Below, piece by piece: positions 1-13,698 of a stretch of DNA of 64,000 nt. This DNA is from Gammaproteobacteria bacterium. Its GTDB lineage: Bacteria > Pseudomonadota > Gammaproteobacteria > JAPPPA01. How positions within the stretch are numbered: the first letter of the stretch is position 1; each line of letters begins with the position of its first letter. The notes beneath the pieces were generated by a model. It made no database searches, was not told the DNA's origin, and saw only the letters and a program-made list of their open reading frames with translations. The stretch lies in assembly GCA_030425645.1 (NCBI GenBank), contig JAUHZK010000009.1, positions 2,290 to 66,289 of the forward strand, read 5' to 3'. A program made the position numbers and the translations under genes.

Positions 1-2398
1 CATCACGATGGACCAATGCCTCTTGACGCGTACCCGCCAAAGCTTGTGATTTAGTTAAACGGGCGACCTGATCCAGGTATTCAACTATGCCTTTATTCTT
101 GCCCTTGTCGTCTGGCTCTGGATGTAATTGCGTAATGTGCTCCATCGCCCCTCCCAACAGCGCGAGAGCTTTCATGGGATCCTCGTATCCGCCGTAATCG
201 AAACCATTAAAAAATTCGTTTCGAATTACATCCAGCGTATCAAGCAGTAGCGTTAGCGCTTCACCGGAAACATCTACTGGAGATTTATCAGACTTGGAAT
301 CCCGAGTGTAGGTAGCGATTGCTTTTTTGAGCTCTTCACCGATGCCGATATAGTCGACTATCAATCCCCCAGGTTTATCTTTCCAAACGCGGTTTGTACG
401 AGCAATTGCCTGCATAAGTCCATGGCCCCTCATGGGCTTATCTACATATAAAGTGTGACATGGAGGCGCGTCTGTACCTGTTAGCCACATATCCCTGACG
501 ATAACTATTTCTAACTCATCTTCTGGATCCTTGAAGCGCCGCTCCAGCATTTTCCGGTCATCCTTGGACGTATGGTGAGCGCGGAAATGCTCCGGATCTG
601 TCGCACGTTGACCAGTCATGACAATTTTAACTTTGCCTTCAAGCAAGTTTGGGTTATGCCAATCTGGGCGTAGTTTGATTATTTCATCATAGAGAGCGAC
701 GGCCGCTTCTCGAGAAATAGACACAACCATCGCCTTACCTGGCAAAGACTGTTTGCGTAACTCCCAGTGGTTTACTAAGTCCTCTGCTAGCTTTTCAATA
801 CGCCCCTCGGCCATAGCGAGCGCTTCAAGCCTCGTGTGGCGGCCTACAGCTCGATTTTGTTCAGACTCGTCCTCATCCTCGGTATTCTCTAAGAACTCAT
901 CATGAAGAGCTTGCTTTTCAGCTTCATTAAACTCTAACTCGATGATCCGCGATTCATAATGAACCGGAACTACAGCGCCATCTTCTTGAGCGGCAACCAT
1001 GTCGTAAACGTCAACATAAGTACCAAATACAGACTGGGTATCCTTGTCTTCTAAAGAAACAGGAGTACCGGTCATACCGAGATAGATCGCATTTGGAAGA
1101 GCGTCACGCATGTGTTTGGCCAAACCGTATTTGGTTTCACCTGTCACACCATCTATCTTGGCGGTAAACCCGTACTGAGTCCTATGAGCTTCGTCGGTAA
1201 TCACAACGACATTTGAACGGTCGCACAAAGCACTATTTGTTTGACCACCCTCAGGCGCAAATTTATTGATGGTCGTAAAGTAGATTCCACCGGCTGGTTG
1301 GCTAGAAAGCATCTCCTTCAACTGCCGCCTCTTCTGGGCCTGCCTTGGCTCCTCGCGCAGAGATTCCTTGCAACTGAAGAATGTTTCATATAGCTGACCA
1401 TCTAGGTCGTTTCTGTCGGTAACGACAACTACCGTAGGGTTGGCAAACTCCTCTCGTTCCCTTAAGGCCATCACATAAAAAAGTGCTAATAGCGATTTAC
1501 CCGACCCTTGAGTGAACCACAAAACACCGCCCTTACCATCTTTCGTATCAAGCAGCGCCGACGAGGCTCTCTCCACAGCCTTTTTAACACCATGGTATTG
1601 GTGCCACTGAGAAATAATTTTTGCGGACGGGCTTCCATCAACCCGCATGAAGGCTACAAAACCCTTGAAAAAATCCAGTAGCACTTCAGGCTTGAGCAAC
1701 CCACAAACTAATGTTTCCAGCTCTAACATACCATCTGGAGAGCGCTCCCCGTCTATAAGCCTCCAAGGCGAATATCGTTCGAAATCAGCCGTCAACGAAC
1801 CGTAACGAGCAACAACGCCGTCAGATATGACATTCATTAGGGAGTACGAAAACAGTTGAGGGATATCCGCCTTATATGTCTGAATCTGCAGGTAAGCAGA
1901 CTCAATATCAGCATTTACGTCAGCAGGGTTTTTAAGTTCCAGAACGACCAATGGAAGACCATTAACAAACAACACGACATCTGGTCGACGAATTTTCGCT
2001 CCATGCACCGTAAATTGCTGAACCACTAGCCAATCGTTATTAGATGGAGTTTCAGTATCAATTACGCCAGCGCGAATTATTCTTTTATGGCCCGTTTCAT
2101 CTTCAATCTCCACGGGCACACCATTTCTAATCCAGTCGTAAACTTCGCGATTACCATCAATTAATGACTGAGTACTGTAATCCGCCAACTTGGATACTGC
2201 TTGTCTGAGTGCGTCGTTACTTAAACTAGGATTAAGCGCACTAATTCCTTGCTCGAGACGAGGACGCAGAACCACTTCGCTATAACGAGTTCGAGCTTCA
2301 TGACTGCCACCAGCAGAAACCATCTCACCGGTCAGGCATTCGTAACCCAAATCTGAGAACCAACTTAATACTGCATCTTCTAAATGACCCTCTAGCAA
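1..2398 (-). CDS. hsdR: Type I restriction enzyme R subunit (HsdR), N-terminal about 800 aa. The gene continues past the window's left edge.
   Basis: No stop on the minus strand from about 2400 to position 1, and no ORF is listed there, consistent with one ORF running off the window. The reverse-complement translation near the 5' end reads LLEGHLEDAVLSWFSDLGYECLTGEMVSAGG, a typical HsdR N-terminus. Reverse-complement of about 1450-1500 reads DGKGGVLWFTQGSGKSLLALF, the helicase motif I / Walker A box of HsdR. The gene lies directly downstream of hsdM and hsdS. The start is uncertain: a TTG at 2396-2398 is in frame just after a stop. Confidence 0.8.
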   Translation of the reverse strand, partial: MLEGHLEDAVLSWFSDLGYECLTGEMVSAGGSHEARTRYSEVVLRPRLEQGISALNPSLSNDALRQAVSKLADYSTQSLIDGNREVYDWIRNGVPVEIEDETGHKRIIRAGVIDTETPSNNDWLVVQQFTVHGAKIRRPDVVLFVNGLPLVVLELKNPADVNADIESAYLQIQTYKADIPQLFSYSLMNVISDGVVARYGSLTADFERYSPWRLIDGERSPDGMLELETLVCGLLKPEVLLDFFKGFVAFMRVDGSPSAKIISQWHQYHGVKKAVERASSALLDTKDGKGGVLWFTQGSGKSLLALFYVMALREREEFANPTVVVVTDRNDLDGQLYETFFSCKESLREEPRQAQKRRQLKEMLSSQPAGGIYFTTINKFAPEGGQTNSALCDRSNVVVITDEAHRTQYGFTAKIDGVTGETKYGLAKHMRDALPNAIYLGMTGTPVSLEDKDTQSVFGTYVDVYDMVAAQEDGAVVPVHYESRIIELEFNEAEKQALHDEFLENTEDEDESEQNRAVGRHTRLEALAMAEGRIEKLAEDLVNHWELRKQSLPGKAMVVSISREAAVALYDEIIKLRPDWHNPNLLEGKVKIVMTGQRATDPEHFRAHHTSKDDRKMLERRFKDPEDELEIVIVRDMWLTGTDAPPCHTLYVDKPMRGHGLMQAIARTNRVWKDKPGGLIVDYIGIGEELKKAIATYTRDSKSDKSPVDVSGEALTLLLDTLDVIRNEFFNGFDYGGYEDPMKALALLGGAMEHITQLHPEPDDKGKNKGIVEYLDQVARLTKSQALAGTRQEALVHRD

Positions 2399-2486
2399 AA
2401 TCTGTCCTTCTAATATTTATAGTTTGAATCTGTGCATTTGAAGCCAAATGCAGTCAATTACTACAACAAAATGTTACCTTAAATCT

Positions 2487-3827
2487 TCAGACCTGATTGG
2501 TTATAACTCGAGGAAGGAGCATATCTCGGATCATTTCTTCTTTCTGACTTTGTTGCTCTACCGAAGAAATGAGTTTGAATATCGGTGTTGTGATCTCATC
2601 AAATTTCGCCAAGGCCCCTTTGTTTGGAACCAAGACATCCATATTTTTTATTGTTCTAGAATTCACCGCAGTGGCAATTGAAGAGGTACTGCCAAGGCTT
2701 GAAAAATCAAATGTTCTCAGATACATCAAAAAATATTTTTCAGAAATAGAATCTTTAAAGTCATGAAAATGAGCAATCGCTTCATTTGTCGTGAGCTCGG
2801 TGCCAGCTATCGCTGTACGCCCCACAGTAAGCTTGAAGCTAAGCAGTACGGAATCACGAGGTATCACTCTGACATTAAATCGATTAATTGCCTCCTCAAC
2901 CAAATACTCTTTACTTGAACGTAAAAACATCCCCCCTTTACCCATATCTTTTATAGAAACCCAAACGTAGTTGCTTTCGCCATAAACATCAAACCAGTGT
3001 TCCTCTTTTCTAGGAGGCGTCTTACCTATTCCAATCGAAGATATATCCTTAGCCAACTTAAATTCCCAACCTTCTGGCAACCATTCACCAGACTTAGATA
3101 AGACAAATTTATCAGGGAAATTCTCACGAATGCTTCTGGGGGTTATTTGCTGATTTAGTTGTCTATATCGTTGTCGAGATAAAGCTCTTTTCTGAAATTG
3201 ATCTGGAATAGAATTTCCAGCTTCCAAGGCATTGTCGATTACAACGTCAAAATCAACGAACCAACTTTTATAAATAACTCTAAGCGTTTCGTTCAAAGTT
3301 ATAAGCACCTTATTATTGCAGGCAACCTTGTTATCGAGTGCTAACAATGGCGCTACTATTTCTGCCTGCTTTTCTGGCTCAGGGACATCAACAGTAATAG
3401 AGGAGAGTGCTCCTCCCGAGATTTCCTTAAATGTAGACCCGGAAGCACTGGCCTCGATTTCAGGAGTTTTATGTTTCAACGCGTAGTAGAAAAATTCACT
3501 ATTGTGTCCGTTTTTTAACACTAAGCTTTTGAAGCCTTGACTCGTAGATACTGGGTTTTTGGCAATAGCGACATAACCAATAGGCGCCCGCGAAGAAAAA
3601 AGCACAGCGCCTTTTGGTAACAATTTGGCGCTCGAATCATTCAAACCAGATTCTGTTAAGAACCGTTTCCCAGCGCCAACATACATATCACGGTTACTGG
3701 ATAAATCTTTTGGCGTCAGCCATGGAATACTCCCTTCCCAAAAAGTTGGTTCCTGGGTATCTGGTGTCCCACCTCCTATCACTGTGGCTACGTCCCCAAT
3801 AGTTAATTTTTCCCAATTAGAGCTCAT
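2487..3827 (-). CDS. hsdS: Type I restriction-modification specificity subunit (HsdS) with two target-recognition domains.
   Basis: The 446-aa product starts MSSNWEKLTIGDVATVIGGGTPDTQEPTFWEGSIPWLTPKDL, the canonical HsdS start of a target-recognition domain. It shows the repeated two-domain layout separated by conserved spacer regions. It overlaps the hsdM stop by 11 nt, a typical hsdM-hsdS coupling. The gene is AT-rich. Confidence 0.88.
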   Translation of the reverse strand: MSSNWEKLTIGDVATVIGGGTPDTQEPTFWEGSIPWLTPKDLSSNRDMYVGAGKRFLTESGLNDSSAKLLPKGAVLFSSRAPIGYVAIAKNPVSTSQGFKSLVLKNGHNSEFFYYALKHKTPEIEASASGSTFKEISGGALSSITVDVPEPEKQAEIVAPLLALDNKVACNNKVLITLNETLRVIYKSWFVDFDVVIDNALEAGNSIPDQFQKRALSRQRYRQLNQQITPRSIRENFPDKFVLSKSGEWLPEGWEFKLAKDISSIGIGKTPPRKEEHWFDVYGESNYVWVSIKDMGKGGMFLRSSKEYLVEEAINRFNVRVIPRDSVLLSFKLTVGRTAIAGTELTTNEAIAHFHDFKDSISEKYFLMYLRTFDFSSLGSTSSIATAVNSRTIKNMDVLVPNKGALAKFDEITTPIFKLISSVEQQSQKEEMIRDMLLPRVITNQV

Positions 3828-5418
3828 AACCGATAACCTTTAACTGCTGCAGCATTTCGGTTTGCAATTCTGCAGATTCATCTAGCAATTCTCTAAGTTC
3901 GCCACACAATGCTCCCATTTGCTCTTCATAGACGCTACTGTCGAATAGTTTCCCTTCTGCTCCAACGAACCTACCAGGAGTAATTTCATAGTTCTTTTCA
4001 GCGATGTCAGAGTGGGTGGCGCTTTTACAAAAACCAAGCTCATCGACATATTCTTTTGAGTCCGCGAACTCAGTGCCTCGCCAGCGGTGATATGTTTGTG
4101 AAATCTTTTCGATTGTTTCGTCTTGGAAAACAACCTGTGTCTTAGATATGTTCTCCGTCTCCAAGTTAGAACAATCCAGGAAAAGAACCTCACCATTTCT
4201 ATTGATGGAGCCATTGCCCCCCTCTGTCTTATCCTTTGAAAGAAACCAAATACATGCAGGTATAGTCACGTTTGAGAATAGCTTGGGCGGCAAGGCTAAG
4301 ATACATTCAACCTGATCGCCGAGAATCATAGCTTTTCGTATAGCGCCCTCGCCTGAAGACTGAGTAGTGAGCGAGCCATTCGCTAGAACAATACCTGCTC
4401 TTCCCTTTTGAGATAAACGGCTGAGCATATGCTGCAACCACGCATAGTTTGCGTTTCCGGCTGGCGGTACACCATATATCCAACGCGGATCATCTTTAAG
4501 AGCGTTTCCTTCCCAATCAGAGATATTGAATGGTGGGTTTGCGAGAATATAGTCGGCGCGTAGTTTGCTATGTTGGTCTTCCGTAAAAGTAGACCCGTAG
4601 GTTTTTCCAATATCTCCCTCCAAACCATGAACAGCCAAATTCATAAGGCATAACTTACGAGTAGCAGCCATATACTCCTGCCCATAAATAGCTAAATCAC
4701 CAACGTCTCCAGCTTTTTTTGCGTGTGCTTCCTTAAAGCGATTTGATTGAACAAACATGCCGCCTGACCCACAAGCAGGATCATAAATTTTGCCTTTGAA
4801 GGGGGCTAAAATTTCGACTATCAATGTTACGACTGATTTAGGGGTATAGAACTCTCCAGCACGCTGCCCTTCCGACATAGCGAACTTGCCCAGAAAGTAC
4901 TCGTAGACTTCTCCAAAAATGTCTTTGCTACCATGCGTTTGGGGGTCGAATTTGATTCTGGCAACTGTCGTCATCAACTCTCCCAATTTGCCAGGACCCA
5001 ATTCTAGTCGCCCAAAATCTCTGTATAAAACTCCTTTCAGGCGAGGGTTATCTTTCTCAATAGATGCCATAGCATCATCTAATAGCTGAGCGATATTTGA
5101 ACTAGAAGCCTTAGACAAAAGGACCGAAAATCGCGCTTCTTCTGGCACCCAAAAGACGTTGTCTTTGTCATAAAACGTTTTATCTTCAGTAAAAGCTGCC
5201 CCTGCATCTAGCCGAAGTTCCTCGTCTTCGATAAATAGTTCAGATTCAGGGTTTTTTAGCTCATCACGAATGAAGTCTCCCTGCGCTTCAAACATATCCG
5301 AAACATATTTCAGGAAAGTCAGCCCCAAAACTGGATATTTGTATTGTGCCGCCGAAACGGACCCCCTTAGGGAGTTAGCCATTCGCCAAAGTTCGGCTTT
5401 AAATTCTTCAGTTGTCAT
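3817..5418 (-). CDS. hsdM: Type I restriction-modification N6-adenine DNA methyltransferase subunit (HsdM).
   Basis: The 533-aa product has an N-terminal HsdM_N-like region (LRGSVSAAQYKYPVLGLTFLKYVSDMFE), an AdoMet-binding motif (IYDPACGSGGMF), and the catalytic NPPF motif (ILANPPFNISDW). Confidence 0.92.
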   Translation of the reverse strand: MTTEEFKAELWRMANSLRGSVSAAQYKYPVLGLTFLKYVSDMFEAQGDFIRDELKNPESELFIEDEELRLDAGAAFTEDKTFYDKDNVFWVPEEARFSVLLSKASSSNIAQLLDDAMASIEKDNPRLKGVLYRDFGRLELGPGKLGELMTTVARIKFDPQTHGSKDIFGEVYEYFLGKFAMSEGQRAGEFYTPKSVVTLIVEILAPFKGKIYDPACGSGGMFVQSNRFKEAHAKKAGDVGDLAIYGQEYMAATRKLCLMNLAVHGLEGDIGKTYGSTFTEDQHSKLRADYILANPPFNISDWEGNALKDDPRWIYGVPPAGNANYAWLQHMLSRLSQKGRAGIVLANGSLTTQSSGEGAIRKAMILGDQVECILALPPKLFSNVTIPACIWFLSKDKTEGGNGSINRNGEVLFLDCSNLETENISKTQVVFQDETIEKISQTYHRWRGTEFADSKEYVDELGFCKSATHSDIAEKNYEITPGRFVGAEGKLFDSSVYEEQMGALCGELRELLDESAELQTEMLQQLKVIGYEL

Positions 5419-5465
5419 GTAATAAGTTGCTCAAAAATTTTTGTAATTATCATTAATAAGTAAGC

Positions 5466-6059
5466 TCAGTTTTCGAGCCTGTTAACTATTGCCGGATTCA
5501 TAGGAAACCCATGGCGCTTTAGCGCAGCATCTAAGGTTGCCCGAGTCACATTAAAATGCGCTGCCACATTTGTCTTAGTTATTTCTGGATCTGTCAGCAT
5601 CGCTGCGGCCTTCTTTGCATCAGAGGCATCCATCTTCGGTGTCCTCCCACCCTTGCGACCTCGGGCACGAGCGGCAGCTAAACCAGCCATCGTTCGTTCT
5701 CGTATCAAGCTACGCTCAAATTCAGCCAATGCACCAAATAAATGAAACACTAGTTTCCCCCCAGCGCTTCCTGTATCAATATTCTCAGAAATGGACCTGA
5801 AGGCGATATTGCGATGTTCGAGATCCGCTACGATTCCAACTAAATCCTTCAATGAACGACCGAGACGATCGAGCTTCCAAACAACCAGAACATCACCAGC
5901 CCGCAGCATTTGCAAACAAATATCTAGCTCCGGACGCGCTATTCCGGCACCGGGTACCTTTTCTTCATAAATACGCTCACACCCATCCCGCTCAAGTGCA
6001 TCGATCTGTAGGCCGGTGTTTTGATCTTGACTGCTAACGCGGGCATAACCAATCTTCAT
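5466..6059 (-). CDS. Serine recombinase of the resolvase / DNA-invertase family (Hin/Gin/TnpR-like).
   Basis: The 197-aa product starts MKIGYARVSSQDQNTGLQIDAL, with the catalytic serine in the conserved YARVSS context. Its size and C-terminal helix-turn-helix (TNVAAHFNVTRATLDAALKRHG) fit small serine recombinases. There is a ribosome-binding site (AAAGGTG) 7 nt upstream. Only 47 nt separate its stop from the hsdM start on the same strand. Confidence 0.85.
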   Translation of the reverse strand: MKIGYARVSSQDQNTGLQIDALERDGCERIYEEKVPGAGIARPELDICLQMLRAGDVLVVWKLDRLGRSLKDLVGIVADLEHRNIAFRSISENIDTGSAGGKLVFHLFGALAEFERSLIRERTMAGLAAARARGRKGGRTPKMDASDAKKAAAMLTDPEITKTNVAAHFNVTRATLDAALKRHGFPMNPAIVNRLEN

Positions 6060-6224
6060 TTAACGCACCTTTGATATACACAGATTGTTATACATAGTTT
6101 TTATACACATATCCACCATTATCTAACGTAATTTAATTACACTAGGACGGTGTATATAAAACGTTGGTTTTATAGCGCATAAATTTATAACACTTAGAAA
6201 AATGCATAAGAAAGGAAACGGGTC
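6060..6224. promoter_or_regulatory. AT-rich divergent promoter region carrying repeated TATACA(C/T)A motifs. It is a candidate recombination site (res or gix) for the adjacent serine recombinase.
   Basis: Three direct copies of the motif sit at about 6075-6082, 6089-6096 and 6102-6109. An inverted copy (TGTATATA) sits at about 6151-6158, and a near-palindrome (TTTATAGCGCATAAA) at about 6169-6183. The region lies immediately upstream of the recombinase start codon, where res sites of resolvases normally lie. Confidence 0.4.
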
Positions 6225-7514
6225 GTGGCAAATACAGAACTTGATTTCAAAATCCCAAGCCTTAAGGATGACATCTGGATCAATCAAGCTGAAAAAGCGA
6301 CAGAGTTAGCCGCTAAGATTCCAGGTGCACAACAGCCTAGAGTTTCCCTCACTGCTCTTGGTAAACAATATCAGGCCGACCCAAACAATCCTGATTGGCT
6401 TTCAGAACTGCGGGAGAAGCTCGCAAGCGCAGATGGTCACTACATATCATCAATATCAATTCAATTAACCGTCCCGGGTACAAGTGCTCAGCAACAAGGC
6501 CAGGTGAGTTTTTCGATAACGCGCATACCGGCTGAGCCAGTAGCAACATTGAAGGTTACGATCGGCCAGCACACAGCTGACGCACTGGATAAGCTGACAG
6601 CAATTAACACAGTAGTTGCGGAATTCCAGCCCATTGACCCTGTAGAGTCAAAAATTAGTTTGGCAACCGATGATGCCGCAGAGTATTTACGTCAGCTTGA
6701 CAATAAGCTCCAGCAATTGTCGAACGTTGCGATAGAACAGACGGAAAAAGTGACCGAAAACCTCCGAGAGCAAGCTCTTCGCAACCAGCAAACACTAGAC
6801 ACGGAGCGTGAGAAACTCCAAGCCGACTTCGATGCCAAGCAAGATGAACTTAAGAAACGCGAAGATATACTGACTAATCGTGTAAAAGATATTGACCTGG
6901 CTGATGCTAAGACTTCGCGCAGAAAGCTTAGAGACCAACTTAAAGAGAAACTGGACAGGCTTGCTGGAGAGTTAAAATTTACCAATCAAACCAATATTGA
7001 GCGCCGAGTGCTCTACGGAGTTCTAGCTTTCGGATTGATAGTTGGTGCAATTATTATAATTGAGGCCGGGCTTGCCATGACCAAGCCTGACGCAACAACT
7101 GGTAATGGCGCCTTCCTTATTGGCGCTCGTGCAACTGCTGGCTCAATATTGTTTGGCAGCGTACTAATCTATTTCATCCGCTGGCAATCAGCATGGGTTC
7201 ATCAACGAACAATGGAGGAGCTTAGGCTCCTTCGAACAAGCTTAGATGTTGAACGAGCAAGCTGGGTAGTAGAAAGCTTAGTAGAGTTCAAAAACGAACA
7301 AATCGACCAAATACCCGATGCGCTTCTTACAGCAGTTACTCGGAATCTCTTTGCAGACCCCGAACAGAATGCTGCAATCACTACTCCGGTAGATGATGTT
7401 GCAGATATACTCAGAAACGGTGCGGAGTCAGTCAAGCTTAAGCTAGGTGACCACGAAGTAGTTCTAGACCGCCGAAGCCTAAAAAAATTATCTGCTGCTC
7501 AAAATGCTGATTGA
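6225..7514 (+). CDS. Hypothetical coiled-coil membrane protein: N-terminal soluble domain, long coiled-coil, two transmembrane helices, C-terminal domain. No recognisable family.
   Basis: GTG start with a ribosome-binding site (AAGGAAA) 8 nt upstream. The 429-aa product has a heptad-rich, charged segment (about residues 150-255: LRQLDNKLQQLSNVAIEQTEKVTENLREQALRNQQTLDTEREKLQADFDAKQDELKKRED). Two hydrophobic helices follow (VLYGVLAFGLIVGAIIIIEAGLA and AFLIGARATAGSILFGSVLIYFI). No catalytic motif was recognised. Confidence 0.6.
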   Translation: MANTELDFKIPSLKDDIWINQAEKATELAAKIPGAQQPRVSLTALGKQYQADPNNPDWLSELREKLASADGHYISSISIQLTVPGTSAQQQGQVSFSITRIPAEPVATLKVTIGQHTADALDKLTAINTVVAEFQPIDPVESKISLATDDAAEYLRQLDNKLQQLSNVAIEQTEKVTENLREQALRNQQTLDTEREKLQADFDAKQDELKKREDILTNRVKDIDLADAKTSRRKLRDQLKEKLDRLAGELKFTNQTNIERRVLYGVLAFGLIVGAIIIIEAGLAMTKPDATTGNGAFLIGARATAGSILFGSVLIYFIRWQSAWVHQRTMEELRLLRTSLDVERASWVVESLVEFKNEQIDQIPDALLTAVTRNLFADPEQNAAITTPVDDVADILRNGAESVKLKLGDHEVVLDRRSLKKLSAAQNAD

Positions 7515-8063
7515 GGACTTTTAACCCCTACCACCAAACCTGTCCAAGCCACGTATACACGAAGCAATCAACGTGAAAAACCTAGGAACGTTGGATACTT
7601 TTCGTAGCAAAGAGCATAACTAATAACGCATTGCTAATTTACAGAACACCGTCCGCTGGTTTGTATTTTCGCCATCAAACGCGCCTGATAGACTAGTGGA
7701 ATACTCAAAGAATCGGACTAACCCGCCCCAAACCGAGTAGTTAGCACTTGTAAGTTGTAACTGAACCATATGCAGTGCATACGGCTACTAGCACCACCAG
7801 TCGCCCCAGAAATATAAGCAATTCAACAGAAAACCAACAAATACGGAGAAACGTATTGCCCAAAATATTGAGCTATGCGATGTTAGCTCGATGTTTGCTC
7901 AAGTTCGCGACATAAAGACACAACACAAATGCCCCGTGGGCAAACAGTTATGTGCAACAAAATCGTATGTTTCTTCTGCCCATATCGGATATATCCCGTT
8001 TTGGCCGCTTGGTAAGTAACTTGATAAGCAACAGCGAAACAGCCGAAGTCCGGCCACTGTCAA

Positions 8064-8432
8064 TTATTTAGTCCAGCAACTTTGCGGAGACCGGTTTCCC
8101 AATCGGTCCAGCGACAAATTCGTACAACCACTATCGTTTAGCTGATCACCTGTCGCAGTGGCCGTTACTAAATAGCCGCGATCAGCCGGGGTCGTTACTT
8201 GAAGCATATAACGGCCGTTCTCACTGCTAGCTGCGGCAACATTACTAAAAGTGCCATTAAGCGTCACCAGCTGCTCTTGCCGTGCTGCCAGCTCCATCAT
8301 TTCGCCTTGCACGTCTTTACGATGACTCTGCAGCACCATCAAACGATAATTCGGTATCGCCCAAGCCGCGATAATGCCGGCAATGGCCATGGTGATTAGA
8401 ATCTCGAGTAAGCTAAAACCACGTTGTTTCAC
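8064..8432 (-). CDS. pilE: Type IV pilus minor pilin PilE.
   Basis: The 122-aa product has the class III prepilin signal MKQRGFSLLEILITMAIAGIIAA (G|F cleavage site, Glu at +5). It is the last gene of the fimU-pilVWXY1 operon. Confidence 0.85.
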   Translation of the reverse strand: MKQRGFSLLEILITMAIAGIIAAWAIPNYRLMVLQSHRKDVQGEMMELAARQEQLVTLNGTFSNVAAASSENGRYMLQVTTPADRGYLVTATATGDQLNDSGCTNLSLDRLGNRSPQSCWTK

Positions 8433-8459
8433 AGCTTCTTATCCTTGCATTGGCAACAG

Positions 8460-11400
8460 TTACCGCAGCTGACGCCAAGTTGAGCGACTACGTTCATAAC
8501 CGATTGGGTTAACCACTGTGCGCTCTATGCCACCGTCGGCGCCGCTAGTTAGATGAATTTCATTACCGTCTGCAGTAATGAGAATGGTTGGCACTGGATT
8601 ATAAGTACCATCAGAGAAACGCCCAGCTGGCGTTAATAGATTACCGTCGCCATCATCGTAGCGGTCATCAAAGGTCACGGAGCCATCACCGTTAAGGTCA
8701 AATGGCGGCAACACGGTTGGTGATCCATCCGCGGCATCCAATTCAAACAGCCAATTGCTAATCGCCGGGTTACAAATCGCTTCGTCGAGAATAGTGGTAG
8801 AGATCAGCAAACGATCATTCCTTAGAATCGGATCGGCCACGACCCTTTCGCCTTGGTTATCAGCCGTAGCTAGCGCTGCCACACTGCTGGCCTCAGCCAG
8901 ATCCATATACCAGCCTAACGTGGTGCTCCAATCAATGGGACCGTCAGCCTGACCATTGCTATCGCCATCATCGGTATCGCTACTAACAATTCTGATAACA
9001 GCGCTTTCTTGGCTACCATCCAGATCCGTATCAATATTGACGTTGACGGAATCCAGAATCAGGCGGCGCCGGTACTTGGTTTTATCACTAATATTTAAGC
9101 CCGTACTTTCGTTCTTGTCCCATATGCCATAGATCGACTGGGTGTAGTGCACTTCACCAACAGCATCAGCTTCCAACATTTCGCCGGTACCAAAAATCAC
9201 CAACTGACCCTCGTCCGCCGGGTGGTTCGGGTGCAACATCACCATCGGCTCGGTCGTAATCGGTTGTGGAACCCCACTAAAGTTGGTCGCTTGGAACAAC
9301 GCCGCAGGGTCGCCGCCACTGCTGGCAGAGAAACCCCAGTTGGCCTCATCGGTATCAGTAAGATCCAACTTCCACAAATTACCAACTAGGTCACCGGAAT
9401 AGACGTAATCAACGGAGCGGTCATTCTCAACGTCAACAACAGCCATTGTCGCTAGGCCATTAGGCACAGAAGTCGGTAAGTTAATGGTTTGCAGCAGGCT
9501 ACTACTGTCATCAACTAAATCCGGCAAAGTGACGGTAACACCCGGCGTTAGCAGTACTTGGCTAAGGTCAAGAAACGCCCCTACCTTGGTGTCGAAGGTT
9601 CGCACCAAAATACCCGTTTCCATATCAATCGCATAAGCGTAAGCATTACCGGTAACGCTGAACGACAGAATAGATGTCGAATCCAAGGAGGTATCGACAT
9701 CTTGCAAACCCAAATCAATTTCGGTGTTGTTATAACCGTTACTCATTAATACGGCCCAGTCACCAGTGGCGTTGGCGTCGCTACCGAAACCAAAATCGGC
9801 TGCCGTAAGCACGATATTGGGCTGCGCGAAGGTATACCCCATACCCGCATGTCCACGCTCCTCATCGGTTTGTAGAATTACGTCGAGAAGCGGTTCTACG
9901 AAGCTGGCACCAACAAAATTTTCAACCAAATTACCCAAGTCCAAAAAGCCAATATCACAAAGCCCCAGCAAGGCATCACAGAGCGCATCTTGAATAAGGT
10001 CGTTCACTAGCTGTTTCAGTTGTCCCGACAAAGAACCCGCATCGGTAAACTCCCACAACACAACCTCTTCAGCATTGTTTTCAGAGAAGCGTCCAGCCTG
10101 ATAATTTCCAGAGCTGTCGTAGCTACCCGGATCAGTGACATCCAAGGCATAGATGCCCTGACCACCTCGTCCTAAAGAACCGACCAATACCGTTCGCCAG
10201 CATGGCGATGAGGCACCACAGCCCGGATAGCGACCAAACACATCGACCACACTAATCTGTCCATCGACATAAGCTTCCGGAGCAAAGTCCGTATCGGCAT
10301 AATCTTTTAAGTTACTCAGTACCCTCGATGGCACAAACGCAATCCGCTCTTCACCCGTGGTGGCATCAAAGCCATGCAACATGCCGTCATTAGCGCCGAC
10401 ATACACCATGGGCGCACGGTCAGCATAATCGAGGGCAAACTGGTGATATCGTTTAGCGGCAATATCAGATGGGTTTTCAAACTCATCCGGATAATCAAAA
10501 TTAGGAGCGCCAACAAACACAGGATTACTCGACAGGATTGGTCCCAGCACGGTGCTCGTTCTGTCTCGTTGAGTACCGCCGTTCTGCTGCTCTCCTGAAC
10601 GCTCACCACGAACATATTCAATCTCAGCCGCTGACAAGCCATCGGTGATACCAATGGTTTCCAGCAAACCTTCTAAACCGAGAGCATTTAGACCGCTTAA
10701 AATCGTGTCCAATAACGGTTGAATCGGCAGTAATAACAAATCTAATGCGCTGCCAACAGCGCCAAGCAAAGTACCCAGAATATCTAAGCTTAGAATCGAG
10801 TTACCAACGCCTTCCAACTGGCTACCAATACCACCTATAAGTGGAATAGCCCCAAAAAACTGAGCATCGGCCAAGGCCGTAGTCGTAAACGGAATGCCAC
10901 CACTGTTATATCCAGTGGCAACACTCGCCTCACGACGCGGATCGTAGGTCATCACCACCCGGCCACTATCACTGGTTAATTGCGAGGCTGCATCCCACTG
11001 CTCCGTGAGAGTGCCATCCGCGCCCAGCTGGTAAGCAATTAAATTGCCAGACCAATTATCAAAGTTGTAACTGGTGGTGAAAATCAGCGTATTGCCATCA
11101 AACTGAGTCGACGAAGCCGTGGTATTGGTGCCCGATAAGCGACTACCACCAATTTCATTCAATGCAGCAATCAGCTGCGCCACCCCGCCACTGCCGAGTC
11201 CACTCAAGTATTGACCACGGCCATTAGCAGTAGCGTGTTTTAGCTCTGTTAGTAGGGCCGCATATTCAAAAGCATCGCTGACATCCGGCTCATAGGGCGC
11301 TGATGCCGGTAATGCAAACAACGGCGTTGGCCAGTTGCCCATCCCGGCCAAAATATCATCAACGTCACCACTGCCCGCCTCAGCCGAAACCACTAGGGCA

Positions 11401-13073
11401 TGGGTATGCATACGTTGTGTGCCCTCTAGGCCTGGCTGCAGGTCATCTTCATAGGCATCCATAGCGGCATCGGCTAAGGTTCCAGCGACACCATCAGCAT
11501 AAGGCTCGCCATCGCTGGTACTACTGTCATCGCTGTCGTGGTCAGTAGCGGGCGTTAGAGTATTGTGACTTTGTTTGCTGTCGCCCTGCGCGCCTGTTTC
11601 TGCAGGATAGTCCGTGTGCGACACGGTTAAACCGTGTGCGGTACTGTAACCATCGGTTACCAATACGGCATTGTGAGCCTGACACTCACCACCATCAGCT
11701 TCCGCTAGAACCGGACAGGAGCTATCTCCCACCACATTCTGGTTTTCCTGGGTTTCAGTGCCACTGAAATAACTGGCATAGCGTGTTGCAGCACTGCAGC
11801 GGAAGTAATTGCCAGCATCTTCTAAGGCGCGCCGTAACGGCGTTGCAGTGGCGGCTGCTTCGGTGCTGTAGATTGCATCCAATAGCGCGCGTTTATTACC
11901 AGATTGCAAGGAGTCGGCAGTCGTTACCGACACTGCGGGCACGGCAATAGCGTCATTCTGATGAATAGTTGCATAAGCCAGAGCCAGCCCATTTGCCGCT
12001 TCAACCAGACTTGCCGCCACGCCTTTGGCAACTAACTCTCGGCTGCGGTAGTACTGGAACCAGTTGGCAAAATTCACCAAGGTAGCATCGGTATTCGCCA
12101 ATCCAGTCAGGTCAACTTCGGTGCCATCGGCTTCGTAATAAAGCGCGACTTTGTAACGTGTATCCACTTCATCAGTACAGGTGAACAAACCAAGCAAGCC
12201 ACAACTGTAAGAACGACTAAAGAACTGATGGGTAATGGTGTCGTAGTTACCATTCGCCAAACGAATAATCGAAGTCGGCTGGTGCACAGACTTAATATTT
12301 AACGTTGCTGAGCTAGCGTTATATGGGTCGAGGCGCACCGCTAAAGGGTTGGCGTCAGCATAGGCAACACCGGCGCTATCAACCCCAGGCCAAGGGCTGT
12401 AGGTCTTATTCGGGTCAAAATAAATGGCGTTAAAACTTGCCGAACGTAACTGCCAAACATTAGCCAAATCACCACTTTGATCTGGCGCAGCGGAGATTCC
12501 TGCTGCGCTGCGCACCCATGAAGTTGATGCCAAGGCATCCAGTAAGCGCTTGGAGGGCGGTATCTGTGCGCAGAATGGGCTCGCTTCCTCATCTGGCAGT
12601 CGCAAGGCATTAACCGCAGCATTGCTTAGGCCGCTGTCGCGGCAAGTACCCGCAGCTGAGTTAAACCGCTCTGGCACAGGAAACAGCCACGGGTATATTA
12701 AACGCCCGTCATCGGTAGCACGCGCCATACCCTGCGCTTGGTCAGCGCCGCCATTACGCTGGCCACCACTGCCTGTTTTCTCGACCGTGGTGTCTGCCGC
12801 ACGATGATCTAAGGTAAAGCTAGACGACATACTTAGAGAGTCGTCCATCAAAATCAGCACATTGGCGTCAGCCTGCGCACCTAAAAATAACGGGCTTTCA
12901 TTCAGCGAGAACTGCCGGTGAGTAAGGCCAGCCAGGTCTAGGCTTAATGCCTGAAGCGGTGCGACCACTAGCATCAAGACTAAGCCCAACAGCAGGTTAA
13001 GCCCTGCCGGCCTACACAAACGGCTTCGCCAATGCATGCGCCTATTTAAAGCAGTTGTTTTAAAAGCCATGAT
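8460..13073 (-). CDS. pilY1: Type IV pilus tip-associated adhesin PilY1, unusually long at about 1537 aa.
   Basis: The listed ORF (8460-13205) overlaps the pilX 3' end; the internal start MAFKTTALNRRMHW at about 13073 gives a signal peptide. It has an N-terminal vWA-like motif (VLILMDDSLSMS). It has the C-terminal PilY1 beta-propeller region (PMVYVGANDGMLHGFDATTGEE), a calcium-loop-like segment (DVENDRSVDYVYSGDLVGNLW), and ends RSTWRQLR. A Gly/Leu-rich low-complexity insert precedes the C-terminal domain. Confidence 0.85.
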   Translation of the reverse strand: MMAFKTTALNRRMHWRSRLCRPAGLNLLLGLVLMLVVAPLQALSLDLAGLTHRQFSLNESPLFLGAQADANVLILMDDSLSMSSSFTLDHRAADTTVEKTGSGGQRNGGADQAQGMARATDDGRLIYPWLFPVPERFNSAAGTCRDSGLSNAAVNALRLPDEEASPFCAQIPPSKRLLDALASTSWVRSAAGISAAPDQSGDLANVWQLRSASFNAIYFDPNKTYSPWPGVDSAGVAYADANPLAVRLDPYNASSATLNIKSVHQPTSIIRLANGNYDTITHQFFSRSYSCGLLGLFTCTDEVDTRYKVALYYEADGTEVDLTGLANTDATLVNFANWFQYYRSRELVAKGVAASLVEAANGLALAYATIHQNDAIAVPAVSVTTADSLQSGNKRALLDAIYSTEAAATATPLRRALEDAGNYFRCSAATRYASYFSGTETQENQNVVGDSSCPVLAEADGGECQAHNAVLVTDGYSTAHGLTVSHTDYPAETGAQGDSKQSHNTLTPATDHDSDDSSTSDGEPYADGVAGTLADAAMDAYEDDLQPGLEGTQRMHTHALVVSAEAGSGDVDDILAGMGNWPTPLFALPASAPYEPDVSDAFEYAALLTELKHATANGRGQYLSGLGSGGVAQLIAALNEIGGSRLSGTNTTASSTQFDGNTLIFTTSYNFDNWSGNLIAYQLGADGTLTEQWDAASQLTSDSGRVVMTYDPRREASVATGYNSGGIPFTTTALADAQFFGAIPLIGGIGSQLEGVGNSILSLDILGTLLGAVGSALDLLLLPIQPLLDTILSGLNALGLEGLLETIGITDGLSAAEIEYVRGERSGEQQNGGTQRDRTSTVLGPILSSNPVFVGAPNFDYPDEFENPSDIAAKRYHQFALDYADRAPMVYVGANDGMLHGFDATTGEERIAFVPSRVLSNLKDYADTDFAPEAYVDGQISVVDVFGRYPGCGASSPCWRTVLVGSLGRGGQGIYALDVTDPGSYDSSGNYQAGRFSENNAEEVVLWEFTDAGSLSGQLKQLVNDLIQDALCDALLGLCDIGFLDLGNLVENFVGASFVEPLLDVILQTDEERGHAGMGYTFAQPNIVLTAADFGFGSDANATGDWAVLMSNGYNNTEIDLGLQDVDTSLDSTSILSFSVTGNAYAYAIDMETGILVRTFDTKVGAFLDLSQVLLTPGVTVTLPDLVDDSSSLLQTINLPTSVPNGLATMAVVDVENDRSVDYVYSGDLVGNLWKLDLTDTDEANWGFSASSGGDPAALFQATNFSGVPQPITTEPMVMLHPNHPADEGQLVIFGTGEMLEADAVGEVHYTQSIYGIWDKNESTGLNISDKTKYRRRLILDSVNVNIDTDLDGSQESAVIRIVSSDTDDGDSNGQADGPIDWSTTLGWYMDLAEASSVAALATADNQGERVVADPILRNDRLLISTTILDEAICNPAISNWLFELDAADGSPTVLPPFDLNGDGSVTFDDRYDDGDGNLLTPAGRFSDGTYNPVPTILITADGNEIHLTSGADGGIERTVVNPIGYERSRSTWRQLR

Positions 13074-13092
13074 GCCCCCTGCGCCAACCCCA

Positions 13093-13698
13093 TTAGTAGC
13101 GCCTGATAAAAGTTGATTGCAACACCACTTGTGTCGCTGTTGTCGCGCCAAACCCAATCGCCGAAACTTCGTATAGGTAGCGCCCTGGTGGCCGCCCATG
13201 ACCACGGTTCAAGCTATCTGGAATAAAGCGCACTTCGCGAATCAGGTATCTCGGCGCCTCACCAGACCCCGGCGGTATATCCGCAATGTCATTAGCGTCG
13301 GCATCGATAAAGCGCCCGTGCTGTTGCCACTGTGCCAGCGTTAATCCGGAGATAGCCGTGGCGAAGTCATCCGCCGCAGCGCCGCCAAAACTAAGCAATT
13401 CAGCATCGTCCAACACGTCTACGTCCAAGCAATTACCGCTGGCAGCGTCAGCACATTCCTGCTCGTGAGGCAAATTGACCAGTCCATCTAACCAGCGCTC
13501 GGCATCGCGCAGGGCGGCTTCGGCCGCCTCCAAGGCGATAGCTCTGTCCATCGTGTGACGCGCCATACGCTCTTCTAGAAAACTGGTACGCAAGGCTGTC
13601 ATTCCAAGCACGGTCAACACTAAAAGCAGAATTAAAGTAACCACCAATACGGCGCCACTCTGCGACCGGCCCATTGCCTGTGGGGAAACCCTATTCAT
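13093..13698 (-). CDS. pilX: Type IV pilus minor pilin PilX.
   Basis: The 201-aa product has an N-terminal hydrophobic segment (GAVLVVTLILLLVLTVLGMTALR) typical of PilX. It sits between pilW and pilY1. Confidence 0.8.
   Translation of the reverse strand: MNRVSPQAMGRSQSGAVLVVTLILLLVLTVLGMTALRTSFLEERMARHTMDRAIALEAAEAALRDAERWLDGLVNLPHEQECADAASGNCLDVDVLDDAELLSFGGAAADDFATAISGLTLAQWQQHGRFIDADANDIADIPPGSGEAPRYLIREVRFIPDSLNRGHGRPPGRYLYEVSAIGFGATTATQVVLQSTFIRRY

What the first reader, a model, noticed from the sequence alone, without database searches (positions are those of the whole stretch)
1..8063. AT-rich accessory island (Type I restriction-modification system, serine recombinase, orphan membrane protein) downstream of pilE
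The window is conserved core to the right of pilE, with gene order matching Pseudomonas (fimU-pilVWXY1E next to ispH-lspA-ileS-ribF-murJ-rpsT). To the left of pilE the sequence becomes visibly AT-richer. There it carries a complete hsdR-hsdS-hsdM system, a serine recombinase and a protein of unknown function. A 550-nt gene-free junction (7515-8063) separates this segment from pilE. The pattern fits a horizontally acquired defence island at a known variable locus. Its left boundary lies outside the window.
Basis: partly seen in the sequence, partly recalled or inferred. Interest (0 to 1): 0.6.

Follow-up and report, generated by a model that had tools for sequence, protein, structure and literature searches.

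The report
Restriction-modification island inserted beside pilE
The AT-rich stretch left of pilE is the right-hand two thirds of a roughly 12-14 kb horizontally acquired island with an integrase at its far end; it carries a Type I restriction-modification system, four related lineages lack it at this site, and insertion sequences are already breaking it up, so it is a real but fairly ordinary defence island.

Summary
Window 1-8063 has 44.7% GC against 51.9% for the rest, and GC3 is 0.37-0.44 against 0.50-0.61. It encodes hsdM-hsdS-hsdR on the minus strand, a 197-aa Gin-like serine recombinase upstream, a divergent 429-aa two-TM protein, and 549 non-coding bases before pilE. hsdR is cut by the window edge (799 of 1040 codons).

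The island reading is supported. Four related lineages (IspH 90% identical in the one relative whose contig reaches ispH) have phaA-phaR-phasin directly against pilE, 207-263 nt apart.

Contigs of the window's own organism show the missing left end: phasin terminator, a 402-aa tyrosine integrase, an HTH protein, and a 311-aa ORF cut by an IS3-family element. A 265-aa HipA-like gene and hsdR follow. This left part is also 44.7% GC.

The 429-aa gene is not an orphan. Its close relatives sit in the same recombinase plus Type I RM module at other genomic sites.

In the metagenome population hsdM carries an IS3-family insertion (TSD GTC, 4006-4008). A second variant joins the other IS directly to position 6669, which deletes the RM genes.

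No att repeats and no invertible segment were found. This is a new member of a known kind, of modest interest.

The parts
1..2398 (-). hsdR, first 799 of 1040 codons (Type I restriction subunit); the 3' end lies left of the window
   Evidence: Pfam HSDR_N 2.4e-48, SWI2_SNF2 1.9e-70, T1R_D3-like. PADLOC REase_I 2.6e-244. TIGR00348 hsdR 8e-171 on the full 1040-aa copy in L001, which is 100% identical to window 1-4008. The translation shows GSGKS (Walker A), DEAH and an RPD...ELK nuclease-type motif, read by eye.
2487..3827 (-). hsdS, specificity subunit, 446 aa with two target-recognition domains
   Evidence: Pfam Methylase_S 5.3e-42 in two stretches. PADLOC Specificity_I 1e-91. It overlaps the hsdM stop by 11 nt.
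3817..5418 (-). hsdM, N6-adenine methyltransferase subunit, 533 aa, intact in the window
   Evidence: Pfam N6_Mtase 1.3e-99 and HsdM_N 3.2e-21. The closest solved chain is 3khk, E 7e-119. The translation shows NPPF and DPACGSGG, read by eye.
4006..4008 (.). Target-site duplication (GTC) of an IS3-family element ('IS-A') that interrupts hsdM in every metagenome contig of this organism. It is absent from the window.
   Evidence: Contigs L001-L004 begin, and L005/L006/L152-L156 end, with inverted-repeat ends TGATACGCCACTAG... abutting window 4008 and 4006. The intact 533-aa HsdM is not on record in the collection.
5466..6059 (-). Small serine recombinase of the Gin/Hin invertase clade, 197 aa, 47 nt upstream of hsdM on the same strand
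   Evidence: Pfam Resolvase 7.6e-43. PDB Gin invertase 4m6f/3uj3 E 1.6e-50, against gamma-delta resolvase at about 1e-25. PHROG DNA invertase 1.2e-66. The GYARVSSQDQ catalytic-serine motif is visible in the translation.
6152..6177 (.). Single hix/gix-like palindromic site (GTATATAAAACGTTGGTTTTATAGCG), centred 105 nt upstream of the recombinase start. It is a candidate binding or crossover site.
   Evidence: It matches hixL at 18 of 26 positions; only 0.35% of random 220-nt windows reach this. It sits at the same distance in L091/L092. AAAC-N4-GTTT occurs nowhere else in window 8501-64000.
6225..7514 (+). 429-aa protein of an unnamed family: N-terminal alpha/beta domain, long coiled coil, two TM helices, conserved C-terminal helix. 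It is divergent from the recombinase.
   Evidence: No Pfam, NCBIfam or PHROG family. AF2 model pLDDT 71. A profile search finds 1439 clusters. Close relatives lie in the same recombinase/Type I RM module elsewhere.
6668..6669 (.). Break-point of a population variant. A second IS3-family element ('IS-B') is joined by its left end directly to 6669, which deletes everything from the 265-aa gene to codon 148 of the 429-aa gene.
   Evidence: L008 and L010 continue from 6669 into TGGTAAGGCCTAGGTTTTCGCG..., the same IS end that follows the 265-aa gene in L001/L002. L155 and L156 read through 6668 from the left without a branch.
7515..8063 (.). Non-coding right end of the island plus the pilE terminator region (hairpin 7930-7942, minus strand)
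   Evidence: No homologous ORF and no Rfam family. It is unrelated to the conserved phasin-pilE spacer of four relatives. Homology to L135 ends exactly at 8064. Terminator-like site.
8064..8432 (-). pilE-like minor pilin, the core flank that marks the right boundary
   Evidence: Pfam N_methyl and ComP_DUS. It is 56-63% identical to PilE of the relatives, the same range as the relatives show among themselves.

Best explanation
Window 1-8063 is the right-hand part of one AT-rich genomic island. The island measures about 12.3 kb without its IS element and was acquired horizontally. It sits in the short spacer between the phasin gene (phaA-phaR-phasin cluster) and the minor-pilin gene pilE.

Gene order, left to right: tyrosine integrase; HTH_26 regulator; a 311-aa ORF cut by IS-B; IS-B; a 265-aa HipA-like/PDC-M03A-like protein; hsdR; hsdS; hsdM; a Gin-like small serine recombinase; then, divergently, the 429-aa membrane protein.

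Function (inferred from intact domains and motifs, not assayed): HsdM2-HsdS methylates a bipartite target, and HsdR2-M2-S translocates along and cuts unmodified incoming DNA.

The recombinase-to-defence-genes arrangement is the published 'recombinase-associated defence' layout. The recombinase probably acts on the single hix-like site upstream of its own gene, in resolution, co-integration or autoregulation, rather than inverting anything (inferred).

The 429-aa and 265-aa proteins travel with this module and are candidate accessory defence components (inferred from synteny only).

The island is decaying in the sampled population. One IS3-family element has inserted into hsdM. This should abolish both methylation and restriction, because Type I restriction needs HsdM. 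A second IS has produced a variant that lacks the RM genes altogether.
For: Insertion:
- Four related lineages have phasin and pilE adjacent, with the same flanking gene order on both sides.
- On the left, homology of the window organism's contig to these empty sites stops right after the phasin terminator (L163 11221). A 402-aa integrase starts 131 nt later.
- On the right, homology stops at the pilE stop codon.
- Both halves of the island are 44.7% GC, against 51-52% for both flanks.
- Exact-protein look-ups listed only occupied-site junctions for this organism: every PilE place shown carries the right junction (10 contigs read, 5 places shown) and every PhaR place that reaches past phasin carries the left junction (23 read, 8 shown).

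Mobility of the module:
- A 47%-identical homologue of the 429-aa protein lies in 250aa<-hsdR<-200aa<-hsdS<-hsdM<-resolvase | ->430aa, next to yggL/tetR. An HTH_26 gene sits upstream, as it does here.
- 67%-identical copies lie next to a 63%-identical recombinase and an HsdM-like gene.
- L093 carries the recombinase and HsdM at 68% identity.

Recombinase-defence link:
- Plasmid homologues at 65-68% identity sit directly upstream of a Type ISP enzyme and of a methyltransferase plus helicase pair, and overlap the 3' end of a convergent restriction endonuclease gene. That is three of the four inspected.
- The association is described by Andersen et al. 2026, PLoS Biol (PMC13552941).

RM integrity: domain and motif evidence.

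IS variants.
Against: - No direct repeats (att sites) link the two island ends. The best local alignment scores 8.5, against a shuffled mean of 8.6. The integrase's role in the insertion is therefore unproven.
- The two halves are joined only through matching ends of IS-B, and there is no target-site duplication around IS-B (left flank ...ATCAC, right flank AGAATC...). DNA may be missing between two IS-B copies, or an adjacent deletion may have occurred. The link between the halves is inferred, not read through.
- The empty-site relatives are different species (86.5%, about 76% and about 73-80% nucleotide identity in the left flank). No conspecific empty site was found.
- Nothing about activity, methylation motif or phage defence was or could be measured.
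- Distant members of the 429-aa family (27-33% identity) have heterogeneous neighbours with no recurrent RM link.
Confidence: 0.85

Rival explanations
1. The island is two nested acquisitions. The first is an integrase-HTH element. The second is a separately mobile, plasmid-derived 'stability/defence cassette' made of the hix-like site, the Gin-like recombinase, Type I RM and the accessory genes. This cassette entered by recombinase-mediated co-integration or by IS-B activity.
For: - The recombinase's closest annotated relatives are on plasmids, next to RM genes.
- A single crossover-like site per unit is what multimer-resolution or co-integration systems carry.
- IS-B sits exactly between the two halves and lacks a target-site duplication.
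- L090 and H16 show relatives of the 429-aa gene as Tn7-like cargo rather than integrase cargo.
Against: - Both halves have the same GC (44.7%).
- The P0004 contig has an HTH_26 gene upstream of the same RM module, which suggests that the HTH part and the RM part travel together.
- No second copy of the hix-like site was found at either end.
Confidence: 0.3
2. The region is ancestral at this locus and was deleted independently, or once, in the relatives. On this view it is not an insertion in this lineage.
For: - The empty-site genomes are not conspecific.
- IS-mediated deletion of the RM genes is happening in this very population.
- The four relatives share a conserved spacer and may form one clade, so a single loss could explain them.
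Against: - The GC and GC3 of every island gene deviate from both flanks.
- An integrase sits at the boundary.
- The same module occurs at unrelated sites elsewhere.
- The relatives' spacer is a clean 207-263 nt with a conserved terminator and no remnant of island sequence.
Confidence: 0.07
3. The serine recombinase makes this a phase-variable Type I system, either an hsdS shufflon / 'epigenetic inverton' or a promoter inversion switch.
For: The recombinase belongs to the invertase clade, and a hix-like site lies upstream of it. Inverting Type I systems are known (PMC7672463, listed).
Against: - There is only one hsdS gene and no partial hsdS copies.
- No inverted repeat longer than 35 nt at 71% complementarity occurs in window 1-9000.
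- No second hix-like site occurs in window 1-8500 (the window's part of the island), in the left part or in the hsdR-distal part.
- All contigs of the population show a single orientation.
Confidence: 0.04
4. The AT-rich block is an assembly or binning chimera that joins foreign DNA to the pil locus.
For: The source is a metagenome, and short-read contigs break repeatedly inside the region.
Against: - Independent assemblies from at least four samples (Logan and JGI), in contigs L005/L006, L152, L153 and L154, read continuously from the pil genes (three of them from ispH) through the junction into hsdM at 99.96-100% identity to the window.
- The breaks coincide with IS ends, not with the compositional boundary.
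Confidence: 0.02

Closest known systems
Type I restriction-modification systems (hsdM-hsdS-hsdR operons; solved examples EcoR124I and EcoKI)
   Same: All three subunits are present with the defining domains, in one operon with an hsdM/hsdS overlap. The N6-adenine MTase motifs and the SF2 motor plus PD-(D/E)xK-type nuclease in HsdR are intact.
   Different: It is only distantly related to the solved family IA and IC enzymes: HsdR against EcoR124 at E 1.6e-31 over about half its length, HsdM against EcoKI at 5e-25. The best HsdM match is the uncharacterised structure 3khk. The family (IA-IE) was not assigned. It carries extra conserved neighbours: the recombinase, the 429-aa protein and the 265-aa protein.
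Recombinase-associated defence loci (RADS; Andersen et al. 2026, PLoS Biol, PMC13552941)
   Same: A small serine recombinase lies immediately upstream of, and co-oriented with, a nucleic-acid-restriction system. Homologous recombinases sit beside other RM types on plasmids.
   Different: That work used a bait from Enterococcus and focused on Bacillota, Bacteroidota and metagenomes. Here the recombinase is a Gin-clade enzyme in a gammaproteobacterial chromosomal island that also has its own tyrosine integrase. A single hix-like site is conserved upstream of the recombinase gene; I did not find such a site mentioned in the parts of the paper I read.
Tyrosine-integrase genomic (defence) islands
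   Same: An integrase gene lies at one end directly beside the core flank. The composition deviates, related genomes show empty sites, and the cargo is defence genes and IS elements.
   Different: The site is not at a tRNA/tmRNA gene; it lies in a terminator-to-stop-codon spacer between convergent genes. No att direct repeats are detectable. The island is interrupted by IS-B.
Hin/Gin/Cin/Pin DNA-inversion systems
   Same: The recombinase is closest to Gin (E 1.6e-50). A nearby 26-bp site resembles hixL, with the AAAC(C/G)-NN-(C/G)GTTT core.
   Different: There is only one site, with no inverted partner and no invertible segment. Fis/enhancer dependence is unknown.
AbiZ (lactococcal abortive-infection membrane protein)
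   Same: The 429-aa protein gives a weak PADLOC match (E 8.9e-5) over its coiled-coil/TM region. Like AbiZ, it is a membrane protein found beside defence genes.

Membership tests
Type I restriction-modification system | HsdM with an N6-adenine methyltransferase domain and an HsdM N-terminal domain | tested here: met
   PF02384 1.3e-99, PF12161 3.2e-21. NPPF and DPACGSGG are visible in the translation.
Type I restriction-modification system | HsdS with two target-recognition domains | tested here: met
   PF01420 matched in two stretches, 446 aa. PADLOC Specificity_I 1e-91.
Type I restriction-modification system | HsdR with an N-terminal nuclease domain and an SF2 translocase, full length | tested here: met
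   Domains. The window holds only 799 of 1040 codons; the full gene is on the identical contig L001.
Type I restriction-modification system | ATP-dependent restriction of unmodified DNA and a sequence-specific m6A motif | not testable with these tools
   Needs methylome data or a restriction assay.
Recombinase-associated defence locus (RADS-type) | A small serine recombinase adjacent to, and co-oriented with, defence genes at a distance compatible with co-transcription | tested here: met
   A 197-aa recombinase ends 47 nt before the hsdM start on the same strand. Co-transcription itself was not measured.
Tyrosine-integrase genomic island | An integrase gene at an island end, adjacent to the core flank | tested here: met
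   A 402-aa PF00589 protein starts 131 nt after the end of homology to the empty sites (L163 11352-12560). It lies outside the window.
Tyrosine-integrase genomic island | An unoccupied site in related genomes | tested here: met
   L011, L135/L136, L143-L146 and L149 have phasin and pilE adjacent.
Tyrosine-integrase genomic island | Direct repeats (attL/attR) at the two ends | tested here: not met
   The best local alignment between the left junction and 7515-8063 scores 8.5, against a shuffled mean of 8.6 (168 of 300 shuffles score as high or higher). The longest shared word is 9 nt. Very short cores cannot be excluded.
Tyrosine-integrase genomic island | Physical continuity of the whole element | tested here: inconclusive
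   The left and right halves end in the two different inverted repeats of IS-B, without a target-site duplication. No contig reads through.
Hin/Gin-type invertible segment | Two inverted crossover sites flanking a segment | tested here: not met
   One hix-like site only (6152-6177). No partner was found in window 1-8500 (the window's part of the island) or in the L001 and L163 island parts, and no significant inverted repeats.
Phase-variable Type I RM (hsdS inverton) | Multiple or partial hsdS copies with inverted repeats | tested here: not met
   A single hsdS; tblastn and ORF listing show no second copy.
AbiZ | Significant full-length similarity to AbiZ profiles | tested here: not met
   Only E 8.9e-5 over residues 158-288 of 429.
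PADLOC candidate PDC-M03 (265-aa protein, outside the window) | Match to PDC-M03A profiles | tested here: inconclusive
   Best E 5.1e-5. There is also a weak HipA_2 motif match at 0.0024.

The most novel reading that the evidence does not exclude
The 429-aa coiled-coil/two-TM protein, and possibly the 265-aa HipA-like protein, may be functional accessory components of this recombinase-linked Type I RM module rather than passengers. One example would be a membrane-acting abortive-infection or sensor arm that backs up restriction. That would define a new multi-gene defence system built around Type I RM. It would also give a first function to an unnamed family of about 1,400 protein clusters.
Probability: 0.25. 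Interest if true: 0.55.

Novelty: new member of a known kind. Interest (0 to 1): 0.35.

Why it matters
By itself this is a textbook case: a defence island with an integrase, a Type I RM system and IS elements, now with both boundaries and the empty site documented. Three details add some value.

- It extends the recently described link between small serine recombinases and defence genes to a chromosomal gammaproteobacterial island. It also points to a conserved single hix-like site that could be tested as the recombinase's substrate.
- It flags an unnamed family of about 1,400 clusters (the 429-aa membrane protein). Its closest members always accompany a recombinase/Type I RM module, and more distant members sit in Tn7-like and plasmid defence cargo. 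This makes it a reasonable candidate for defence screening.
- The metagenome contigs capture three coexisting states of the island: intact, hsdM::IS, and RM deleted next to an IS. This is a small natural example of how RM systems are lost without post-segregational killing.

Tried and rejected
- att repeats: k-mer, BLAST-short and Smith-Waterman comparison of the two island ends found nothing above shuffled controls. An eye-caught 13-14 nt similarity, TC(C/G)GATATA(T)CCCG, was rejected as chance; I also did not see it when reading the relatives' empty-site spacers in the alignment.
- Invertible segment or shufflon: the inverted-repeat search, the hix/gix consensus scan and the 12-2-12 palindrome scan found no site pair.
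- Junction 7515-8063: no Rfam family. It is not a remnant of the 339-aa gene that follows the homologue in L091/L092, and it has no similarity to other module copies or to the rest of the window.
- Neighbourhoods of distant 429-aa homologues: 108 neighbouring ORFs from 17 metagenome loci gave heterogeneous Pfam and PADLOC hits, with no recurrent RM or recombinase. The tight linkage holds only for the close subclade plus L090.
- Intact HsdM look-up: not on record, so the window's uninterrupted hsdM could not be confirmed in an independent assembly.
- Composite-transposon idea (IS-B at both ends): only one IS-B position is documented in the full-length form. The 6669 junction is one-sided, so it was read as a deletion, not a second insertion.
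- Replacement of the pil operon together with the island: rejected, because PilE is 56-67% identical between all pairs of lineages, not just against the window.
- Literature search for a described pilE-adjacent hotspot: nothing relevant.

Full report
**1. Observation**

The window's left 8 kb is compositionally distinct. Positions 1-8063 are 44.7% GC, against 51.9% for 8064-64000. No 8-kb window in the remainder falls below 49.4% (sd 0.9%). Third-codon-position GC is 0.37-0.44 for the five genes on the left and 0.50-0.61 for pilE through murJ.

- hsdR, 1-2398, minus strand.
- hsdS, 2487-3827, minus strand.
- hsdM, 3817-5418, minus strand.
- A 197-aa serine recombinase, 5466-6059, minus strand.
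- A 429-aa ORF with no known family, 6225-7514, plus strand.
- 549 non-coding bases up to the stop codon of a pilE-like minor pilin (8064-8432).

One correction is needed. hsdR runs off the window, with only 799 of 1040 codons present. The complete gene is visible on contigs that are 100% identical to the window (L001/L002).

To the right, the order is pilE, pilY1, pilX, pilW, pilV, a fimU-like gene, ispH, lspA and ileS. A ribF-sized ORF, murJ and rpsT follow. murJ and rpsT were recognised by reading the translations, ribF by size and position only.

The organism is not a Pseudomonas. The best genome match in GTDB is an unclassified Gammaproteobacteria MAG with 76% PilY1 identity.

**2. Empty site**

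The nearest MAG (L011) has a 113-aa ORF convergent with pilE, instead of the island; its product resembles a phasin. Searching that protein and looking up its relatives gave three more lineages:
- L135/L136.
- L143-L146.
- L149.

All three carry gluQ-like, phaA, phaR, phasin -> <- pilE, pilY1, pilXWV, fimU, ispH, lspA, ileS. The phasin-pilE spacer is only 207-263 nt.

These are genus-level relatives. For L135, IspH is 90%, LspA 84% and PilY1 69% identical to the window; PilY1 of L144 is 73% identical. Nucleotide homology between L135 and the window stops exactly at the pilE stop codon, 8064.

The four relatives share a conserved spacer with a strong bidirectional terminator. The window's 7515-8063 is unrelated to it.

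**3. Left boundary**

The window does not contain the left end. PhaR of the window's organism was identified as a cluster member present in NCBI, JGI and Logan. Its contigs come from the same samples as the window-identical contigs, for example JGI 3300041045 and SRR32932194.

They read phaA, phaR and phasin, then the conserved terminator. Homology to the empty sites ends at L163 11221. The following genes come next:
- A 402-aa tyrosine integrase, starting 131 nt after the end of homology (PF00589 8e-16; PHROG integrase 1e-20).
- A 146-aa HTH_26 protein.
- A 311-aa ORF.

This 2.7-kb part is 44.7% GC, against 51.4% for the flank. That is the same value as the window's island part.

The contigs then end in an IS inverted repeat, TGGTAAGGCCTAGGGTTCC.... 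The contigs that extend the window leftwards run hsdR, then a 265-aa HipA-like gene, and after 43 nt end in the matching repeat TGGTAAGGCCTAGGTTTTCG.... That repeat is followed by an IS3-type orfA start, MGKGIRYSAEF.

So the most economical structure is: phasin | int, HTH, orf311', IS-B, 265aa, hsdR, hsdS, hsdM, recombinase, 429aa | pilE. This is about 12.3 kb plus IS-B.

The link through IS-B is an inference. No target-site duplication flanks IS-B. Either an adjacent deletion has occurred, or more DNA lies between two IS-B copies.

No direct repeats connect the two island ends.

**4. The module travels**

The 429-aa protein has no Pfam, NCBIfam or PHROG family. It is not an orphan, however. 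A profile search finds 1,439 clusters of full-length relatives. Its close relatives are embedded in the same module at other sites:
- P0004 (47% identity). The contig reads HTH_26, a 443-aa gene and a GIY-YIG gene, then 250aa<-hsdR<-200aa<-hsdS<-hsdM<-resolvase | ->430aa, followed by yggL and tetR.
- L091/L092 (67% identity). The gene sits beside a 63%-identical recombinase and an HsdM-like gene.
- L093. It carries the recombinase and HsdM at 68% identity plus a C-terminal fragment of the family.
- L090 (31% identity). The gene follows hsdM-hsdS-x-hsdR as cargo of a Tn7-like element.

Two distant members on annotated replicons also lie in defence-type cargo:
- Tn7-like genes, a GIY-YIG nuclease, a restriction endonuclease and an AAA/UvrD pair on a Pseudoalteromonas megaplasmid.
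- A Fic/Abi/AIPR region on a Photobacterium plasmid.

Other distant members have heterogeneous neighbours.

The AF2 model (pLDDT 71) shows four parts:
- An N-terminal alpha/beta domain.
- A roughly 100-residue coiled coil.
- Two TM helices, at about 262-285 and 297-318.
- A conserved helix carrying the invariant IRW...W and D(V/I)(E/D)RASW motifs.

**5. The recombinase**

It is a small serine recombinase of the invertase clade. Gin scores E 1.6e-50, against about 1e-25 for gamma-delta or Tn3 resolvase. The PHROG 'DNA invertase' family scores 1e-66.

Homologues at 65-68% identity are plasmid-borne. In three of the four I inspected they lie beside restriction genes:
- Directly upstream of a Type ISP enzyme.
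- Directly upstream of a methyltransferase plus helicase pair.
- Overlapping the 3' end of a convergent restriction endonuclease gene.

This matches the association reported by Andersen et al. 2026 (PMC13552941). In that work the recombinase was dispensable for defence, and mobilisation or inversion was proposed but not shown.

I found no invertible segment:
- There is one hsdS gene.
- There are no meaningful inverted repeats.
- There is no site pair.

I did find a single hix-like palindrome at 6152-6177:
- It is centred 105 nt upstream of the recombinase start and lies at the same distance in L091/L092.
- It matches hixL at 18 of 26 positions.
- Its core motif occurs nowhere else in the window.

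One site per unit fits resolution, co-integration or autoregulation rather than inversion. This is inference.

**6. Population variants**

Every metagenome contig of this organism breaks at 4006-4008. IS inverted repeats lie on both sides, with a 3-bp duplication (GTC). An orfA start, MQTRKTYSEEFR, is visible inside the element. This is an IS3-family insertion ('IS-A') in codon 471 of hsdM.

The intact 533-aa HsdM of the window is not on record. The window therefore represents an uninterrupted haplotype or sample.

Separately, contigs L008 and L010 join the left end of IS-B directly to position 6669. Contigs coming from the left (L155, L156) pass 6668 without a branch. A one-sided junction of this kind is what an IS-adjacent deletion produces. 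That variant lacks the 265-aa gene, hsdRSM, the recombinase and the first 148 codons of the 429-aa gene.

Because Type I restriction requires HsdM, both routes remove restriction together with methylation. This follows from established knowledge of Type I enzymes.

**7. Verdict**

The refinements are:
- hsdR is truncated by the window.
- A tyrosine integrase at the unseen left end is a likelier agent of integration than the serine recombinase.
- The 'orphan' protein is part of a conserved module.
- There are no detectable att repeats.
- 'Known variable locus' is not established.

The finding is a new member of a known kind and of modest interest. The most novel reading still open is that the 429-aa and 265-aa proteins are functional accessory arms of a Type I RM-based defence module.

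Noticed in passing
window 4006-4008 (inside hsdM): In all same-organism metagenome contigs an IS3-family element (ends TGATACGCCACTAG...; orfA MQTRKTYSEEFR) is inserted here with a GTC duplication. The window has the uninterrupted gene, and the intact HsdM protein is not on record in the contig collection.
   Followed up: yes
window 6668/6669 (inside the 429-aa gene); L001 5675-5773; L163 13920-13948: A second IS3-family element (ends TGGTAAGGCCTAGG...) lies between the integrase part and the RM part of the island, with no target-site duplication. In some contigs its left end is joined directly to 6669. This is a one-sided junction, consistent with an IS-adjacent deletion of about 8.3 kb.
   Followed up: yes
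window 6152-6177: A single hix/gix-like palindrome lies 105 nt upstream of the Gin-like recombinase gene and is conserved at the same distance in L091/L092. Similar cores lie 110-126 nt upstream of homologous plasmid recombinases (L161, L158). It may be the recombinase's binding or crossover site.
   Followed up: partly
L163 10956-11221 versus L149 (phasin 3' end and phasin-pilE spacer): The 266 nt spanning the last ~87 nt of the phasin gene and the spacer downstream of it are 97.7% identical between two lineages whose surrounding genes are only about 86% identical. This suggests a conserved non-coding element, either a terminator plus something else or a small RNA.
   Followed up: no
L001 4834-5631 (left of the window, after hsdR): The 265-aa protein has a HipA-like kinase motif (DLWIGNDDRH) and weak matches to the PADLOC candidate PDC-M03A (5e-5) and to a PHROG of unknown function. 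A 250-aa gene occupies the same position in the P0004 contig. A clear PDC-M03A member (1e-29) is also a neighbour of one distant homologue of the 429-aa protein.
   Followed up: partly
window 8460-13205 (pilY1): PilY1 is unusually long, at 1536 aa from the called start; the ORF is open for 1581 aa. Like PilE, it diverges fast between the related lineages (65-76% and 56-67% identity), while IspH stays at 90%.
   Followed up: partly
L170 (CP076682.1 190318-191604) and L171 (NZ_CP099736.1 39881-41287): Distant homologues (25-28% identity) of the 429-aa protein lie in defence-type cargo. One is next to a Tn7-like transposition module with a GIY-YIG nuclease, a restriction endonuclease and an AAA/UvrD pair. 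The other is in a Fic/Abi/AIPR region.
   Followed up: partly
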